Assembly: GCA_051313645.2 (NCBI GenBank)
Contig: JBNRSN020000015.1
Coordinates: forward strand, 2,356,001 to 2,420,000
Length of the DNA stretch: 64,000 bases
Source of the DNA: Centroscyllium fabricii
Taxonomy: Eukaryota
Direction of reading: 5' to 3'
Position numbers and translations under genes: made by a program. This document shows positions 29,018 to 42,286 of this stretch, piece after piece. The notes under the pieces were generated by a model. It ran no database searches. It saw nothing but the letters and a program-made list of their open reading frames with translations, and was not told where the DNA came from. Position 1 is the first letter of the stretch; every line of letters begins with the position of its first letter.

Positions 29018-29265
29018 TGTTGCGCCGGCAAGGCCTAGGAACCACACGTGAGCCAGAGAGCTAGAGAAAACACAACTTTAATACACTAGAGCTAAACAAG
29101 AAAGAGAGTGAACCACTCGCAACAAGCATATTTAAACAGTCCCGCGGTTGGTGACGTCATCGCGTCGGCAGACGTGGTGACGTCGTCGCGTCACCCGGAT
29201 CAATGGGGCTCTGCTCCGCGGAGTTCCCGTGGCGGATTCGGTGTCCCAGTGGGCGTGCCGCCACA
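29018..29265 (-). repeat. 3' LTR (248 bp)
   Basis: TGTTGCGCC...GCCACA. It matches 33509-33756 with 5 substitutions by eye. ATTAAA poly(A) signal on minus at 29077-29082. Confidence 0.95.
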
Positions 29266-29268
29266 CAG

Positions 29269-29276
29269 CTCCCCCC
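29269..29276 (-). other. Polypurine tract (GGGGGGAG)
   Basis: Purine run on the minus strand, 3 nt upstream of the 3' LTR. Confidence 0.85.
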
Positions 29277-29307
29277 AGAATCCGTCCGGGATGAATAGTA
29301 AAAGAGT

Positions 29308-30756
29308 CTATGTGTGCCGTTGGGGTGGCCGGATAATGCGGCCGGACCGTGTTGCCTGCTGCTTCTGGTTCTGCGGTGGAGTGTGGGCGGGTTTTGTTGC
29401 GGGAGGGCGACCGCGTTGTGGTGGTTGTGCGGGGACAGTCGTCTCGCCCGCTATGACGTGTGCCGGCTTGAGCCGGTCTATTGTCAAAGTTTTAGTTCTA
29501 TTGCCCAATTGTAGTTCAAAAGCTTTAGCCCCCGCCCGAAGCACTCTGTAGGGGCCATCGTACGCTGGCTGTAGTGGAGATCGGTGTCCGTCGCGCCGGA
29601 CGAACACGAATTTAGCGTTTTTGATGCCGTCTGGCACCCGAGCCGCCGGCTCTCCGTGCCGGGCCACTGGTAGTGGCTGGAAAACACGTGCCGGGTTGCC
29701 GAAGTCTTTTAAATACTGGTCGGCTGACCAGGGAGCGTTGGGCTCAGCTAGGAACTCGCCCGGCACTGTTAAGGCTTGGCCGTAGACGAGTTCAGCTGCC
29801 GAGGCATTGAGGTCTTCCTTGACTGCCGAGCGCAGCCCGAGGAGAACCCATGGGAGACGGTCGGTCCACGACGCGTCCTTGAGAGTGGCTCGTAGCGATG
29901 CCTTCATTGAGCGGTGGAACCGTTCGCATAGCCCGTTCGCCTGTGGGTGGTATGCGGTGGTTCGATGTAGCGTTACCCCGAGGTCGCGGGCGATGGCCGC
30001 CCATAATTCTGACGTAAACTGGGGTCCTCTGTCGGAGGTGATGTCGGTGGGCACGCCGAAGCGGGCGACCCAGGTGGCGATAAACGCCCTGGCCAAGTCC
30101 GTGGTGCCGTTGGCGGTGAGGGGGACTGCTTCTGGCCAGCGGGCGTTGCCGTCGACCATGGTCATCACGTGCATGTGGCCCCGGGATGGCGGTAGTGGCC
30201 CGACGAGATCGATATGGACGTGGTCAAAGCGTCTGGCCGGCACTTTAAAAGTTTCCAGCGGTGCCCTGATGTGCTTATGCACTTTGGAGCGCTGGCAGGC
30301 GATGCAGGAGCTGGCCCAGGCGCGAACGTCCTTACGCAGGCCACGCCATACGAACCGGGCCGAGACTAATTTGATGGACGCGCGGGTGCCGGGGTGGGAC
30401 AGGTCATGGAGGGTCCTAAATATGTGTCGCCTCCAAGCGTGGGGGACGACGGGCCTAGGCTGCGGCAGCGATACGTCGCAGCAGACGACGGTGGGAGCGG
30501 GGCCGTGTGCGATATTGGCCCAGTGGAGGCCAGGGAGATTAGCTGCTGCGTTGAGCAGGTCCGGGTCGGCCAGCTGGTCAGCGGCCAGCTGGGCGTAATC
30601 GACCGTCATTTTGGCGGCGTTAATGGTGGGGCGTGAGAGGCAGTCAGCGACCACGTTGTCACGGCCGGATATGTGTTGGATGTCGGTCGTAAATTCCGAC
30701 ACGGCCGCGAGTTGGCGCTGCTGCCTGGCCGACCAGGGTTCGGCGACCTTAGCCAT
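29308..30756 (-). CDS. Open integrase-containing part of pol (RNase H end, tether, HHCC-DDE integrase)
   Basis: 482-aa ORF containing LHDLSHPG...CIACQ, HIDLVGP, SDRGPQFTS, HPQANGLCERFHR and YDGPYRV. It is in frame with the upstream RT/RH across the premature stop. Confidence 0.85.
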   Translation of the reverse strand: MAKVAEPWSARQQRQLAAVSEFTTDIQHISGRDNVVADCLSRPTINAAKMTVDYAQLAADQLADPDLLNAAANLPGLHWANIAHGPAPTVVCCDVSLPQPRPVVPHAWRRHIFRTLHDLSHPGTRASIKLVSARFVWRGLRKDVRAWASSCIACQRSKVHKHIRAPLETFKVPARRFDHVHIDLVGPLPPSRGHMHVMTMVDGNARWPEAVPLTANGTTDLARAFIATWVARFGVPTDITSDRGPQFTSELWAAIARDLGVTLHRTTAYHPQANGLCERFHRSMKASLRATLKDASWTDRLPWVLLGLRSAVKEDLNASAAELVYGQALTVPGEFLAEPNAPWSADQYLKDFGNPARVFQPLPVARHGEPAARVPDGIKNAKFVFVRRDGHRSPLQPAYDGPYRVLRAGAKAFELQLGNRTKTLTIDRLKPAHVIAGETTVPAQPPQRGRPPATKPAHTPPQNQKQQATRSGRIIRPPQRHT

Positions 30757-31346
30757 CGCAAACGTGAGTGGCTTATGGTCGACGAAGGCTGTGAAGTGGC
30801 GGCCCTCCAGGAGGAAACGAAAGTGTCACACTGCCAGATGAAGAGCGAGGAGCTCCCTATCGAAGGCGCTGTATTTAACCTCTGGGGGCCGGAGTTGCCA
30901 GCTGAAAAAGTCCAGGGGCTGCCACAAGTTGCCGGCCCACTGCTCAAATACGGCCCCGACCGCGTGGTCGGAGGCGTCGGTAGTGAGGGCTACTCTGCCG
31001 TTGGGCCTAGGGTGGGCTAGGAGGGTGGCGTTTGCCAGGGCGGTTTTAGTTGCGGTGAAGGTGGTGGCGGCGTCGGCCGTCCACTCGACCGCAGCCTTGT
31101 TGGACTGCCCGCGGGTGGCCTGGTATAAGGGGGCCATGAGAGCGGCTGCTCCCGGGATAAAGCGGTTATAAAAATTAACCATGCCCAGGAATTCCTGCAG
31201 CCCTTTAATGGAGTGCGGGCGGGGGAATTCCTGTACCGCCTGCACCTTGGAGGGCAGGGGTATAGCCCCTGTTTGGGAAATGCGGTGGCCGAGGAAGTCA
31301 ATAGTATCGAGGCCGAATTTGCACTTGGTGGGGCTTAATATAAGGC

Positions 31347-31625
31347 TGTGGCGACACGCCCACCGGCAGCCACGAACCCGCGCTGGGAAGGCTGCAAAGC
31401 GGCCCCGCCCGTCGGAGGACGCACGGACTTCCCCGACGTGATGACGTCACCAGGTGGCCAGCCGGCAGTGACGTCCCCAGCGACGGGACCTTTAAATACC
31501 TGAGCACCAGGTGGCTCAGTCTCTTTTCTCCCTCTCTGGCCCTAGCTGGAACAAGTAGTTAATAAAAACTCTGCTTTTAACCCCTCTGTGTCCAGCGTGG
31601 TCCTTCAGCCTTGCAGGCCTCAACA
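31347..31625 (+). mobile_element. Nested solo LTR (279 bp) of a related Gypsy family, antisense to the host element
   Basis: TGTGGCGACACGCCCAC...CAACA termini, TSD AGGC (31343-31346 and 31626-31629), TTTAAATA at 31491 and AATAAA at 31561. Both ends resemble the sense strand of the host LTR. Confidence 0.92.
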
Positions 31626-33495
31626 AGGCCGTGTTCGGCCAGGCGCTGGAACAGGGTCCTGAGGTGCAGGAGGTGCTCCTGGGGGGAGGTGCTGGCCACG
31701 AGGATGTCGTCTAAATAGACGAAAATGAACTTCAAGTCCCGTAGAACCGAGTCCATGAGGCGCTGGAAGGCCTGGGCCGCGTTTTTAAGGTCGAAGGGCA
31801 TCCTGAGGAACTCGAAGAGCCCAAAGGGGGTGATAACGGCCGTTTTAGGAATGTCCGCCGGGTGCACCGGAACCTGGTGGTAGCCACGCACCAGGTCGAT
31901 CTTGGAAAAGATCGTACAGCCCGCTAATCTGGCGGAAAAATCCTGGATGTGGGGTATGGTGTACCTATCCGGGGTAGTGGCGTTGTTTAGGTGGCAGTAG
32001 TCACCGCAGGGGTGCCAACCCCCATCTGGCTTGGGGGCTATGTGGAGAGGAGAGGCCCAGGGGCTGTTGGAGTGGCGGATGATGCCGAGTTGCTCCATGG
32101 TGTGGAACTCGGCGCGCGCGATCTCCTGCTTGGCCGGGTCGAGCCTACGGGCGTGGGCATGGACGGCAGGGCCTGTGGTTGTTATAAAGTGTTCCACCCC
32201 GTGTTTAGCCTGTCGGGCGGTGAACGTGGGGTTGGTTAGGGCGGGGAACTCTGCAAGTAGTGTGCCGTAGGCATCTGAGTTCCGTGAGCGGCATTGGGCT
32301 GCCGCGTGGGCCAGGAGTGCGGGCCCTGTGGAGCATGGGATGGTCGTCATGGTATTCATGTTGACCAAGCGGCGCCGGGTTACGTCGACCAGTAGGCCGT
32401 AGGCGCAGAGGAAATCTGCCCCGAGGAGGGGCGATGTGACCTGGGCTGTGACGAAATCCCAGGTGTACGTGTGGCTTGCAAGTGTGATAGTAAGCTTGCG
32501 GGTGCCGTACGTTTTAATACTGGAGCCGTTGGCCGCTGCTAGTGGCGGGCCCCGGGTGCCTTGTTTGGTTTCTGCAGGGGAGGCTGGCACGATGCTGTGC
32601 TGCGCGCCTGTGTCGCAGAGGAAACTAAGGCCTGTGCCTCTGTCTGTAACAAAGAGCAGTGCTCCTGTGTGGCCTACAGACATGGAGGGGGCTGAGTTGG
32701 GCCGTGGCTTGAACGCGCATGGCTGGACGCAGCGGTGCGCTTTGTTATCGAACCGCGTGTGGTAGTAGTACCAGCCGGTGCTAGAGGGACGCAGTTGCTT
32801 AGGTGGGCGCGGGGCCCTAGGTTCAGGCGTAAAGTTAGGCCTGGGGGGTGATTGGCTGCGCTCTACCGATGCGGAGTTAGGGTCGCACGTGGTTGAGCGG
32901 GTGCGCTGCGCCTCCATCAGCCGGTCGGCTTCCTCTGCGAGCTCGTCGTCTCTCCGTTGGCCAAGGGCCGCCAAGGCCGGTCTGATGGAACGGGGCAGTT
33001 TAAGGAGGAAGACGGTGCGGAACAGGGAGGCGGGATTGGGTGTGAGCGTTTGCATCTGACCTAAGAGGTCCGATGGGTCTGCGTCCCCGAGTTCGGGGAG
33101 GTCAAGGAGCTGGCAGTCGCGCTCAAATTGAGAGGGGGTAAAAAAAATTATGAGCGCGGCCTTAAGGGATTCGTACCTGCCTGTAGTGGGCACACGCTGT
33201 ATTTTTGACCACATCCAATCGATCGTCGATTGCGGTAGGGCTGAGAACACCAGGTCGTAGCGGTCGTCCCCCTTGATGCCATGTGTGCGGCAGCTGGTCT
33301 CGATGCACATAAACCAGGCCGCTGGCCGTTGCTCCCAGAACTCAGGTAGAGTTAGTCCATGTCCGAAGTTCTGGCCAAGTCCTTGCGTTCGTGGAGCTTG
33401 GTTCCTTGCTCGTGCCATGTTTTCTGTTTAAAAAGTTCTTTGGCTGGTGGTCCCAGATCCTGCGGCAGCTTTTCTTCTTTGGAAGTCGTTCCAAT

Positions 33496-33507
33496 TCGGG
33501 GTCACCA
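33496..33507 (-). other. Primer-binding site complementary to tRNA-Trp
   Basis: The minus strand reads TGGTGACCCCGA 1 nt after the 5' LTR, matching the first 12 nt of the canonical tRNA-Trp PBS (TGGTGACCCCGACGTGAT). Confidence 0.88.
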
Positions 33508-33508
33508 C

Positions 33509-33756
33509 TGTAGCGCTGGCAAGGCCTAGGAACCACACGTGAGCCAGAGAGCTAGAGAAAACACAACTTTAATACACTAGAGCTAAACAAGAAAGAGAGT
33601 GAACCACTCGCAACAAGCGTATTTAAACAGTCCCGCGGTTGGTGACGTCATCGCGTCGGCAGACGTGGTGACGTCGTCGCGTCACCCGGATGAGTGGGGC
33701 TCTGCTCCGCGGAGTTCCCGTGGCGGATTCGGTGTCCCAGTGGGCGTGCCGCCACA
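33509..33756 (-). repeat. 5' LTR (248 bp)
   Basis: TGTAGCGCT...GCCACA, adjacent to the PBS. Contains TTTAAATA (minus, 33620-33627) and CRE-like TGACGTCA. Confidence 0.95.
33620..33675 (-). promoter_or_regulatory. Putative LTR promoter: TATA-like TTTAAATA with upstream CRE-like TGACGTC sites
   Basis: The same arrangement (TGACGTC sites followed by TTTAAATA) is conserved in the diverged nested LTR at 31441-31498. Confidence 0.5.
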
Positions 33757-34864
33757 GCGTGAGGTTTAATGACGTGAGGTTTGATGCCGGGATGTTTGAT
33801 TTTATGAGGTTTGCTCATGTGAGGTTTAATGGCGTGAGGTTTGATGGCGTGAGGTTTGATGGCGTGAGGTTTGATGGCATGAGGTTTGATCGCATGAGGT
33901 TTGATGGCATGAGGTTTGATCGTGTGAGGTTTGATGGCTTGAGGTTTGATGGCGTGCGGTTTGATGGCGCGAGGTTTGATGGTGTGATGTTTGATATCGT
34001 GAGGTTTGATGACATGAGATTTGATGGTGTGAGTTTTGATGGAGTGAAGTTTGATGACGTGAGATTTGATGACGTGAGGTTTGATGACATCAGGTATGAT
34101 GATGTGAGGTTTTACGAGGTGGTGTTTGATGATGTGAGGTTTGATGATGTGAGGTTTGATGATGTGAGGTTTGATCGCGTGGATTGATCTCGTGAGATTT
34201 GATGACGTGAGGTTTGATGGCGTGAGCTTTGATGGCGTGAGGTTTGATGGCGTGAGGTTTGATGGCGTGACATTTGACAGCGTGAGGTGTGATGACGTGA
34301 GGTTTAATGGTGTGAATTTTGATGGCGTGAGCATTGATGACGTGAGGTTTGATGGCGTGAGTTTGATGACGTGAGGATTGATGGCATGAGGTTTGATGGC
34401 GTGAGGTTTGATGGCATGAGGATTGATGGCATGAGGTTTGATCATGAGGTTTGATGGCGTGAGCTTTGATGGAATGAGATTTGATGGCGTGAGGTTTGAT
34501 GGCGTGAGGTTTGATGGCGTGATGTTTGATCGCGAGGTTTGATGGCCTGAGATTTGATGACATATGGTTTGATGACCTGAGGTTTGATGGCGTGTGGTTT
34601 GATGATGAGAGGTTTGATGACGTGAGGTTTGATGGCATGAGGTTTGATGGCGTAAGGTTTGAAGGCGTGAGGTTTGATGGCGTGAGGTTTGATGATGTGA
34701 GGTTTGATGGCGTGAGGTTCTATGGCATGAGGTTTGATGGCGCGATGTTTGATGGCATGAGGTTTGATGGCTTGAGGTTTGATGGCTTGAGGTTTGATGG
34801 CATGAGGTTTGATGGCATGAGATTTGATGGAGTGAGGTTTGATGATGTGAGGTTTGATGACGTG
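33757..34864. repeat. 15-bp satellite segment
   Basis: Same monomer, carrying left-domain variants. Confidence 0.97.
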
Positions 34865-35860
34865 TGTAACGGTGGGGTGTGGGGCCCAAATGCAAGACAC
34901 TGATAAAACTGTCTAGGTCCTTAAATTCCTTTATATACAAAACTGCTGTAATAACAAACATACATGCATACATTCATAAAGTTACAATACATAATTAAAT
35001 GGCATACAATTAGTTAGATACAGAAAAACAAGTTCCCTTCCGAACTGGTACAAAACTTTCCTCAGTGAGTGGAATGATACTCCGTCAAGAGCATCATAAT
35101 GTAGTGAATTACATGTCCAACCCTGACTACAGGTGGTAGAGAGAAAAGTCCAGGCTGTTGAATTAAGAATACTCCCGAGTCCGCCCTACAGCAGGGACTC
35201 ACTCCAACGGAGTCTTCAGAGGAAGAATCCATCTTCACAAACAAGGAAACTCCCCACATACTCTACTGAAATGTCCAAACCTCAGTTCGGGTGATAACGA
35301 CCAATGTCCAGGAAGTAGAACCAGGATTTCTTCAAAGTCCGCTCGACCGCGGGGACTCAACCCAACGGAGTTCACAGAACGAGAATACTTGATCTACTTA
35401 GCAGGGGAACTCCCTTACTTAACTAATGGAATGTCCAAACCTGAGCCCAGGTGGCAGAGTGCAATGTCCAGAATGTAGACAACTGTAGTTCTCCGAAGTC
35501 CGCTCCACAGCTAAGACTCACTCTACCCGAGTTTCCAGAAGAGAATACATCATCTACAAGGCAGGGGAACACCCAAACCCATTGCCTCTCCAGGAGCTCA
35601 GACAGCAACCACTCCTTCCAGTAGTTCATAGTAATGAGTCGTAAGTAGTATAATGATCCGGCAACGCCCTGGTCACAGAGCCCAGCTTATAAGCCGATCA
35701 GCCAAACACGATTCATTAATGCAAACCAATAAAATGCAGGTATTGAGAACCAGGAACACACAGGTATGTGCACAGGTAATTGAGGTATAATGAACCAAAA
35801 CAGAGAACAAAACAAAGAATTCCAAAATGGATTACTTAAAGGGGAATGCCATCTGTGACA
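34865..35860 (-). mobile_element. ~1-kb solo LTR (996 bp), Gypsy/ERV-like
   Basis: TGTAAC...GTGACA termini and 5-bp TSD ACGTG (34860-34864 and 35861-35865). No coding domains. On minus there is TATAAGCTGGG near 35690 and a 3' end ...TGCATTTGGGCCCC...GTTACA. Homologous to 41289-42286. Orientation is inferred. Confidence 0.88.
35110..35575. repeat. Three diverged ~160-bp tandem units inside the solo LTR
   Basis: AGTCCGC...GACTCA...GAGT...AGAAT recurs at about 35178, 35336 and 35497. ATGTCCA motifs recur with the same period. Confidence 0.8.
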
Positions 35861-41288: not shown

Positions 41289-41368
41289 TGTAAGGGAATG
41301 TGTAACGGAATGTGGTGGGGCCCAAATGCAGAGACACTGAAACGTCCTTCCAAAGCAAACTCCTTTAA

Positions 41369-41384
41369 TATATATATATATATA
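41369..41384. repeat. (TA)8 microsatellite
   Basis: Read directly. It corresponds to a short TATATA in the sister LTR at about 34932. Confidence 0.9.
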
Positions 41385-41599
41385 ACAAAACCCTCATAAA
41401 TTGCATTCACACATAAACAATTCTATTAAACATCTAATCAAGTCTTTGCTGAAGACTGGCACAAGCTTCATACAGTTACAAAATAATAAGATAGAATTAG
41501 AAATCAAGTTCCATTTGGAACTGGTACAATACTTTCCAAAGTTGTGTGGAATAGAGTAGAGGAATGCTACGCAGCCAAGCGCATCATTGACCAAAGGAA

Positions 41600-41950
41600 T
41601 AAATGTCCAAATCCTGAATCCAGGTGGGTAGCAATACTGGATCTCTTCCGAGTCCGCCCTGCAGTCGAGACTCACTCCAACTGAGTCTTCTGAGGAAGAG
41701 AATACCATCCAGAATCCTTGGGACTCCTTGCATACCCTACAGCAATGTCCAAACCTGAGTTCGGTTGATTATGACCAAATGTCCAAGTAGTAGATTCTGA
41801 ACTCTCTTCCGAGTCCGCCGTGCGGTCGAGACTCACTCCCCCGGAGTCTTCTGAGGAAGAGAATACCTGATCCACAAGCAGGGGGACGCCCTTACTCGAC
41901 AGATGAATGTCCAAGCCTGAACTGCAGAATAGCAGAGTGCAATGTCAAGG
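41600..41950. repeat. Two ~161-bp tandem units inside the solo LTR
   Basis: CTCTTCCGAGTCCGCC...GAGACTCACTCC...GAGTCTTCTGAGGAAGAGAATACC at 41643 and 41804. Confidence 0.85.
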
Positions 41951-42286
41951 CTGAGTGATATGAGCTCCAAACCCCATTGCCTCTCGAGCAGCTCAGCACA
42001 GAAACCAACTCCTCCAGCAGTATGAAGAAAGTCCGTCCAATTCAATGAATGTAGCTAATGATCCCGCACCTGCCTCATAGAGACCTCCAGCTTATGAACC
42101 AAACCGGCATAGAGATCATTTGGTGTTTAGCCAATAAGCTGCAGGCAACGAGAACAGGGACACACAGGCAAGTGAACAGCTAATTGATAAGATAATAGAA
42201 CTAACAGGGAAACCAGTCCTCAAAACAGGTGTGGAGCACACAACCAAACTGTTTTGCTATCTTAAAGGGACAGGCACCCTGTGACA

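What the first reader, a model, noticed from the sequence alone, without database searches (positions are those of the whole stretch)
35167..35548. Tandemly repeated three-way-junction RNA-like motif inside the ~1-kb solo LTRs
Seen: five copies of a ~60-nt motif, at about 35167-35228, 35327-35388, 35488-35548, 41643-41700 and 41804-41861, spaced ~160 bp. On the inferred sense (minus) strand each folds by eye into an outer stem (clearest as CUCUUCC/GGAAGAG in copies 4 and 5), a ~7-nt linker, hairpin 1 ACUC(C)-loop-(G)GAGU, and abutting hairpin 2 GAGUCY-N12-GGACUY. Loops diverge freely while most stem substitutions give G-U wobbles, e.g. AACUC/GGGUU, GAGUCU/GGACUU and GAGUCC/GGACUU. An alternative pairing (AGACUC/GAGUCU) also exists. 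The units lie between the putative TATA and poly(A) signals, so they would be transcribed. Inference: an uncharacterised multimerised cis-acting RNA element (export, packaging/dimerisation, or an unrecognised ribozyme). I cannot assign it to a known family.
Basis: partly seen in the sequence, partly recalled or inferred. Interest (0 to 1): 0.7.

Follow-up and report, generated by a model that had tools for sequence, protein, structure and literature searches.

The report
Hairpin repeats in protein-less retrotransposon ends
The five repeats are real and sit in the end-repeats of an abundant, protein-less jumping gene, in the part predicted to be copied into RNA, where they likely act as RNA hairpin tags that help it borrow the proteins of full-size relatives; the three-way-junction fold is only partly supported, and the repeats match no catalogued RNA family and lack the hammerhead ribozyme core.

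Summary
The five copies are there. Both LTRs are solo relics of very abundant non-autonomous elements (LTR, about 165 bp, LTR). Their primer site pairs with their own predicted 5' end, as in Tf1/sushi chromoviruses, so the repeats lie in a long predicted R region. The module has about 21,000 exact genome matches and a homologue in Gag-coding relatives. The three-way junction is weaker than proposed. Only stem P3 has support (G-U over A-C, swap test). No pair shows covariation above background, folding is no better than shuffles, and the loops and junction are conserved in sequence. The module is missing from 38 of 86 non-autonomous LTRs. Rfam gives nothing and the hammerhead core is incomplete. 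Best reading (0.45): RNA cis-signals for capture by helper proteins, multiplied by duplications within R. DNA enhancer, neutral duplication and m6A remain open. No RNA data were available. The scan holds no look-alike sequence; a similar element type was noted in another genome (e1-7879995).

The parts
34865..35860 (-). Solo LTR E1 of a non-autonomous, predicted self-priming sushi-type Gypsy element; TG..CA ends, 5-bp target duplication
   Evidence: 40 scored of 4646 candidates, 95-100% identical; complete LTR-internal-LTR forms
41289..42286 (-). Solo LTR E2, a second subfamily about 70% identical to E1; TG..CA ends, 5-bp target duplication
   Evidence: 40 scored of 3906 candidates, 97-100% identical
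35686..35691 (-). TATA-like box of E1 (CCAAT-like element at 35726-35730)
   Evidence: motif match only
35652..35662 (-). Predicted RNA 5' end and self-primer of E1, complementary to the family's primer site; marks the start of R
   Evidence: 11-bp duplex in complete copy L004
35481..35560 (-). Module copy (first in E1 RNA order)
35320..35400 (-). Module copy (second in E1); minimum-energy fold is not the three-way junction
35162..35242 (-). Module copy (third in E1)
35075..35096 (-).
34930..34935 (-). Poly(A)-signal-like hexamer of E1 (non-canonical in this copy)
   Evidence: motif match
42091..42096 (-). TATA-like box of E2 (CCAAT-like element at 42131-42135)
   Evidence: motif match only
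42057..42067 (-). Predicted RNA 5' end and self-primer of E2; differs from E1 in step with its family's primer site
41796..41878 (-). Module copy (first in E2)
41635..41715 (-). Module copy (second in E2)
41565..41586 (-). Hairpin H6 of E2; carries G-C where E1 has U-A (compensatory change)
41364..41369 (-). Poly(A)-signal-like hexamer of E2
   Evidence: motif match
35115..35472 (-). Six TGGAC sites in E1, two after each module; E2 has further sites between 41605 and 42040
35245..35574 (-). Three kappaB-like palindromic decamers, one before each E1 module (35245, 35405, 35565); one in E2 at 41882-41891. The kappaB label is recalled, not tested by a call

Best explanation
The repeats are a conserved module of about 65 nt in the predicted R region of solo LTRs left by an abundant, protein-less, likely self-priming sushi-type Gypsy retrotransposon, and they likely act on the RNA as hairpin tags that help helper proteins (most likely Gag) of full-size relatives capture and copy that RNA. 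Shown by calls: the element anatomy; the primer-site complementarity and its covariation; a homologous module in Gag-coding relatives; R plus U5 twice as long in the non-autonomous elements; duplications of several periods that contain the module. Inferred: transcription from the self-primer site, so that every module is present twice per RNA; folding of P3 (moderate support) and of P1 and P2 (weak support); spread by misaligned strand transfer within R; a benefit in competing for helper proteins. With only about 165 nt between the LTRs, mostly primer site, leader stem and polypurine tract, any further cis signals must lie in the LTR. The module is one of several exchangeable R modules and is not essential.
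For: Internal region 152-175 bp in 87 of 90 junction loci; self-primer complement found in 86 of 90. 7,052 exact junctions against 1 control. Gag-start relatives: 8,647 matches against 0; one tested ORF has gag, RT, RNase H, integrase and chromodomain. Module in 48 of 86 non-autonomous LTRs (1-4 copies) and 14 of 35 Gag-start LTRs. Median R+U5 792 against 384 nt; periods near 70, 140, 160, 220 and 240 nt. P3: arm-swap p=0.002; G-U 18 cells against A-C 2; lineage-shared changes 9 towards G-U against 1 towards A-C (binomial p=0.011), private changes 4 against 5. Whole structure 81.4% paired against 79.5% shuffled, covariation score 0.235 against 0.199, 0 of 500 shuffles (this control ignores kinship). 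Junction shape is the minimum-energy fold in 17 of 29 representatives against 40 of 348 shuffles. The neighbouring hairpin H6 shows sense-strand RNA selection in the same R: 83 of 86 LTRs, 94.4% paired against 83.6%, G-U 31 against A-C 3. In Ty1 and Ty3, cis signals for trans mobilisation lie at the RNA ends, and Ty3 packaging depends on UTR or POL sequence (PMC4974528, passages).
Against: 0 of 22 module pairs rank in the top 5% for covariation, against 2 of 8 for H6. RNAalifold keeps 4 pairs. P1 swap p=0.06 and P2 p=0.12, and one of five non-pairing controls reached p=0.011. A-C cells are nearly as common as G-U in P1 (19 against 21). Shared-against-private contrast in P3 is not significant (Fisher p=0.057 and 0.12). 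Folding z is -0.75 sense and -1.52 antisense; R as a whole is no more stable than shuffles. The inner P3 stem is unsupported. 38 of 86 non-autonomous LTRs lack the module. In two Gag-coding branches the homologous unit does not fold this way. The two Gag-start loci read with a well-matching module and a long open frame, L159 and L166, lack the zinc knuckle. No binding or RNA data.
Confidence: 0.45

Rival explanations
1. The 160-bp unit is a DNA enhancer or downstream-promoter array; the inverted GACTC/GAGTC words are transcription-factor sites and fold only incidentally.
For: Junction and loop bases are conserved in sequence. Both strands fold alike. kappaB-like decamers are enriched in non-autonomous R, 8 observed against 1.6 expected. 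TGGAC is the top 5-mer, in 44 of 44 dereplicated R regions.
Against: G-U bias in P3 and H6 on the sense strand. By eye, no recalled factor motif (AP-1, GC box, ETS, STAT) is kept across module lineages. The units lie downstream of the predicted start. kappaB-like sites are absent from Gag-start R.
Confidence: 0.2
2. The module has little function: it was multiplied passively by misaligned strand transfer inside a repetitive R region, and G/U-rich sequence folds easily.
For: Other R segments without the module are duplicated too. 38 of 86 elements spread without it. Folding is not above shuffles. No significant covariation.
Against: Lineage-shared changes per column are about 1-3 in the core against about 6 in the flanks (flanks may differ by recombination). 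The 74-nt module alone was duplicated in tandem. P3 wobble bias.
Confidence: 0.17
3. The repeats are an m6A or host-factor cluster that stabilises or exports the intron-less RNA, as m6A does for L1.
For: GGAC[ACU] 206 observed against 78 expected and RRACH 386 against 227 on the sense strand of non-autonomous R (copies are related). The two positions before the P2 'AC' are purines in 82 of 82 copies. RRACH density promotes L1 RNA stability and retrotransposition (PMC8324889, passages).
Against: The module's GGACU lies in a predicted stem, which is recalled to disfavour methylation. Gag-start R often has GGAUU in similar contexts (27 against 29 for GGACU). DRACH is not enriched on the sense strand of Gag-start R.
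Confidence: 0.13
4. The module is an undescribed or hammerhead-derived self-cleaving ribozyme, making these elements animal LTR retrozymes.
For: Type-I-hammerhead-like layout: a 7-nt junction reading CUGANGA in 52 of 129 hits, an A-U pair followed by H at the matching place, non-autonomous LTR anatomy with tandem arrays.
Against: GAAA follows in 0 of 129 hits. A complete-core pattern has 0 genome matches against 23 for its reversed control. The position matching G8 is A in 28 of 82. Gag-coding relatives lack CUGANGA. No Rfam ribozyme hit on the module. Cleaving R several times would fragment the strand-transfer template (inference).
Confidence: 0.05

Closest known systems
Tf1/sushi group of self-priming Ty3/Gypsy chromoviruses (Tf1, Tj1; PMC4600332 passages; Sushi LTR model in PMC3601003 passages and section 12)
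   Same: TG..CA ends matching the Sushi integrase motifs; poly(A) signal near the LTR end; primer site complementary to the predicted RNA 5' end; U5-leader duplex; Gag-start relatives with a chromodomain.
   Different: The window's elements encode nothing and R+U5 is about 790 nt. No repeated R structure is described in the passages read.
TRIMs, including Cassandra, Helenus and Ajax (PMC10886601, abstract and introduction read)
   Same: Two LTRs around a very short non-coding internal part with primer site and polypurine tract; 5-bp target duplication; tandem arrays.
   Different: About 2.1 kb in all, against under 1 kb. Self-priming site instead of a tRNA site. The LTR module is not tRNA- or 5S-derived.
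Plant LTR retrozymes (PMC4918200, abstract read)
   Same: Non-autonomous Gypsy-dependent element with a three-helix RNA motif in each LTR.
   Different: No hammerhead core; LTRs about 1 kb with 0-4 modules; internal part about 165 bp rather than 600-1000; circular RNA untested.
Terminal cis-acting packaging and dimerisation regions of Ty1 and Ty3 (PMC4974528, passages read)
   Same: Signals at the RNA ends suffice for mobilisation in trans.
   Different: Those signals are not defined as repeated modules, and R is reported dispensable for Ty1 retrosome localisation.

Membership tests
Tf1/sushi self-priming chromovirus lineage (host element) | Primer site complementary to the element's own predicted 5' end | tested here: met
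   86 of 90 junction loci; covaries between subfamilies; 11-bp duplex
Tf1/sushi self-priming chromovirus lineage (host element) | U5-leader stem flanking the primer site (recalled from Tf1 work; the papers were not held) | tested here: met
   duplex of about -41 kcal/mol in two complete copies; compensatory change between Gag-start and non-autonomous rows
Tf1/sushi self-priming chromovirus lineage (host element) | Gag-PR-RT-RH-IN with chromodomain in coding relatives | tested here: met
   Pfam on L172; one copy tested
Tf1/sushi self-priming chromovirus lineage (host element) | RNA actually starts at the primer segment and is cut to prime | not testable with these tools
   no RNA run available
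TRIM | Two LTRs, non-coding internal part with primer site and polypurine tract | tested here: met
TRIM | Total length under 1000 bp | tested here: not met
   about 2.1 kb; definition from PMC10886601
TRIMp3 (Cassandra, Helenus, Ajax) | tRNA- or 5S-derived sequence in the LTR | tested here: not met
   Rfam and ARAGORN, 0 genes in 4 loci
Hammerhead ribozyme, type I | Three helices around a junction | tested here: inconclusive
   17 of 29 minimum-energy folds; covariation not significant
Hammerhead ribozyme, type I | C3 U4 G5 A6 N7 G8 A9 (core as in PMC3088659) | tested here: inconclusive
   52 of 129 hits contain it; absent from Gag-coding relatives
Hammerhead ribozyme, type I | G12 A13 A14 A15 | tested here: not met
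   0 of 129; 0 genome matches for a complete core with this P3
Hammerhead ribozyme, type I | Self-cleavage | not testable with these tools
   bench assay needed
LTR retrozyme | Hammerhead in each LTR | tested here: not met
LTR retrozyme | Circular RNA products | not testable with these tools
   no RNA run available
Any Rfam 15 family | Covariance-model match on the module | tested here: not met
   no hit on the units at E up to 10; five further loci gave only two sub-threshold hits, one per LTR of L013, E 0.77

The most novel reading that the evidence does not exclude
The module is an undescribed structured RNA signal, a three-way junction inherited from one branch of vertebrate sushi-type chromoviruses. 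Protein-less derivatives multiplied it and added hairpin H6 to outcompete their helpers for Gag, which would give the first defined, modular capture signal for the lineage that gave rise to PEG10 (lineage link from PMC4340606, abstract start). At the far end, the junction is a hammerhead-like fold with a non-canonical core.
Probability: 0.25. Interest if true: 0.7.

Novelty: new variant of a known kind. Interest (0 to 1): 0.4.

Why it matters
How Gypsy-type Gag proteins pick their RNA is poorly defined; the Ty1/Ty3 review says packaging sequences are not precisely defined (PMC4974528). These elements keep only about 165 bp between their LTRs and exist in thousands of copies with exchangeable R modules, so they are a natural deletion and multimerisation series for finding such signals. 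If the module proves to be an enhancer or neutral, what remains is an abundant non-autonomous chromovirus family with one well-supported hairpin, which is of modest interest.

Tried and rejected
Rfam and ARAGORN: nothing on the module. Sequencing runs: no RNA holder listed; two runs of contigs showed only presence and variants, nothing on expression or ends. Hammerhead: rejected as a member. The first census pattern had one letter too many and caught only a 125-match variant with an extra base between P2 and P3; it was rerun. The inner P3 stem is not above shuffled loops; that parse also caught non-homologous hairpins. Windowed pairing probabilities exceeded 1 through an averaging error, so only its motif counts are used. 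One search stopped with an error after folding 14 units; its arm matrix was not obtained. ranks G-test/APC scores against other column pairs and is not a true R-scape run. Covariance-model searches reached the divergent branch only weakly (E 0.007-0.93) and missed the L151 branch. Earlier scan notes: no look-alike by sequence or place, none for the word search. Literature searches listed no paper on this motif or family; Repbase, Dfam and subscription papers were not searchable, so this does not show absence from print. The two Tf1 mechanism papers were not held. No supplements were read.

Full report
Setting. The window is a 15-bp satellite of about 4,260 copies with three inserts. Two are the solo LTRs in question: E1 at 34865-35860 and E2 at 41289-42286, both on the minus strand, with TG..CA ends and 5-bp target duplications. 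They are about 70% alike. The genome is 7.2 Gb; earlier scan notes call it a shark, which I did not test.

Observation. The five copies exist where stated, about 160 bp apart. Four fold into the proposed junction as their minimum-energy structure; copy 2 does not. A degenerate pattern of the module has 20,977 exact matches in the genome and its reversal 0. Rfam gives nothing on the units.

What the LTRs belong to. Searches with E1 and E2 gave 4,646 and 3,906 candidates, of which 40 each were scored, at 95-100% identity. Of the top 30 loci each, 23 and 22 are solo (21 and 15 with an exact 5-bp duplication) and 7 and 8 belong to LTR-internal-LTR forms; two LTRs of one element count separately. 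The LTR-primer-site junction occurs 7,052 times against 1 control. In 90 such loci, the first listed on one contig and including some neighbours in tandem arrays, the internal part is 152-175 bp in 87 and was not delimited in 3. The two LTRs of three complete copies are 98.9-99.4% identical. The primer site matches a segment about 25-30 nt behind the TATA-like box (86 of 90, at most one mismatch) and changes with it between subfamilies. An 11-bp duplex was computed for L004; L035 has a changed primer site and gave none. Both show a U5-leader duplex near -41 kcal/mol. This is the arrangement described for Tf1 and Tj1 (PMC4600332, passages), and the ends fit the Sushi motifs (PMC3601003, passages). 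Relatives with a Gag start codon behind a similar primer site number 8,647. One open frame has gag, protease, RT, RNase H, integrase and chromodomain; not all such relatives were checked for full coding capacity. On U5 and leader, 13 non-autonomous rows separate from 11 Gag-start rows with support 0.997. The modules therefore lie in R by inference; no RNA run was available to test it.

Distribution. A sequence-only profile found 129 modules: 0, 1, 2, 3 and 4 copies in 38, 7, 19, 21 and 1 of 86 non-autonomous LTRs, and 0, 1 and 2 in 21, 11 and 3 of 35 Gag-start LTRs. Median R+U5 is 792 against 384 nt, and module spacings cluster near 70, 140, 160, 220 and 240 nt, so there were several duplications. 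Segments without the module were duplicated as well. In two Gag-coding branches a recognisably homologous unit of about 80 nt does not fold as a junction. What all branches share is TGGAC or TGGAT: TGGAC is the top 5-mer and is present in 44 of 44 dereplicated R regions (related sequences).

Structure test. From 33 representatives under 90% identity I dropped 4 (two L087 hits, two with long insertions) and aligned 29 by sequence alone. With a structure taken from single-copy folds, 81.4% of cells pair against 79.5% shuffled, and the covariation score is 0.235 against 0.199; that control ignores kinship. RNAalifold keeps only four P3 pairs. Arm swaps give p=0.002 for P3, 0.06 for P1 and 0.12 for P2, while one of five controls gave 0.011. 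No pair of 22 ranks in the top 5% by G-test with APC. Folding z is -0.75 on the sense strand (3 of 29 below -2) and -1.52 on the other (8 of 29). The junction shape is the minimum in 17 of 29 sense, 15 of 29 antisense and 40 of 348 shuffled sequences. On a tree of 82 distinct non-autonomous copies (99 hits kept after removing L087, odd lengths and five tandem neighbours), lineage-shared changes in P3 kept pairing 13 times and broke it 3 times, against 7 and 7 for private changes. Moves to G-U outnumbered moves to A-C 9 to 1 (binomial p=0.011), against 4 to 5 (Fisher p=0.057). P1 and P2 show no clear bias by column, partly because their register slides between lineages. Junction and loop bases are conserved. 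In sum, P3 is moderately supported as a sense-strand RNA stem and the full junction is unproven.

A better hairpin next door. Just downstream of the modules both LTRs carry an 8-bp hairpin, H6 (35075-35096, 41565-41586). It is in 83 of 86 non-autonomous LTRs, including 38 of 38 without the module, and in 0 of 35 Gag-start LTRs. In 20 representatives RNAalifold finds it unprompted, 94.4% of cells pair against 83.6%, one G-U pair is kept in 19 of 20, G-U cells outnumber A-C 31 to 3, and one pair ranks in the top 0.1%. The two compensatory pairs change largely in the same lineage, so events are few. H6 shows that this R region is under selection for RNA structure, and it shows how much weaker the module's own signal is.

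Ribozyme. The layout recalls a type I hammerhead, and CUGANGA occurs in 52 of 129 hits, but GAAA never follows and a complete-core pattern has 0 genome matches against 23 for its control. The core required in PMC3088659 (passages) is not met, and coding relatives lack CUGANGA. It is not an LTR retrozyme as defined in PMC4918200 (abstract).

Mechanism. Inferred chain: the element is transcribed from the self-primer, so R and its modules occur at both RNA ends. The internal part holds little beyond priming signals, so further cis signals must be in the LTR, as terminal regions suffice for mini-Ty mobilisation (PMC4974528, passages). The module came from one coding branch, was copied by misaligned strand transfer, and likely helps helper Gag capture the RNA (0.45). 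Against this: it is dispensable in 38 of 86, and the two coding loci L159 and L166 lack the zinc knuckle that 4 of 8 long Gag frames carry exactly. Rivals are a DNA enhancer array (0.2), passive duplication (0.17), an m6A or host-factor cluster (0.13; PMC8324889, passages) and a ribozyme (0.05).

Novelty. The host is a non-autonomous derivative of a known lineage, too long for a TRIM as defined in PMC10886601 (abstract and introduction). Neither the module nor H6 is in Rfam or appeared in ten literature searches (listings only, except the seven papers named above); repeat libraries could not be searched. Verdict: new variant of a known kind, interest 0.4.

Noticed in passing
window 35075-35096 and 41565-41586; alignment A4: Hairpin H6: 8-bp stem with a near-invariant G-U pair and compensatory changes, in 83 of 86 non-autonomous LTRs and 0 of 35 Gag-start LTRs. 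A better-supported RNA element than the module and a candidate gain specific to the parasites.
   Followed up: yes
L159, L166/L172: Gag-start elements that carry the module lack the whole zinc-knuckle segment, and gag runs in frame into pol. Other subfamilies end Gag at 322 aa with a knuckle.
   Followed up: partly
window about 29019-33757, minus strand: An unrelated Gypsy element with LTRs of about 250 bp, RT and integrase domains, a primer site that looks tRNA-type by eye, and an insert of about 280 bp near 31350-31630 interrupting pol.
   Followed up: partly
window 1-64000: 15-bp satellite of about 4,260 copies with very strong strand skew, hosting three LTR insertions within 14 kb.
   Followed up: no
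L069-L071, L073-L074, L078-L079, L054; G000:C823:30063490-30066814: Tandem arrays in which neighbouring elements share an LTR; junction matches 5,019 bp apart suggest the same for coding relatives.
   Followed up: no
L069, L088, L064 (R region): Module-less subfamilies carry a long predicted hairpin of about 90 nt and other stems; one L069 window had z -5.7 on the sense strand.
   Followed up: no
125 genome matches: Mostly one subfamily with an extra base between P2 and P3, so the junction tolerates an insertion there.
   Followed up: no
window 41289-41312: The 3' end of E2 carries a short tandem duplication of the terminal motif, shared by its family.
   Followed up: no
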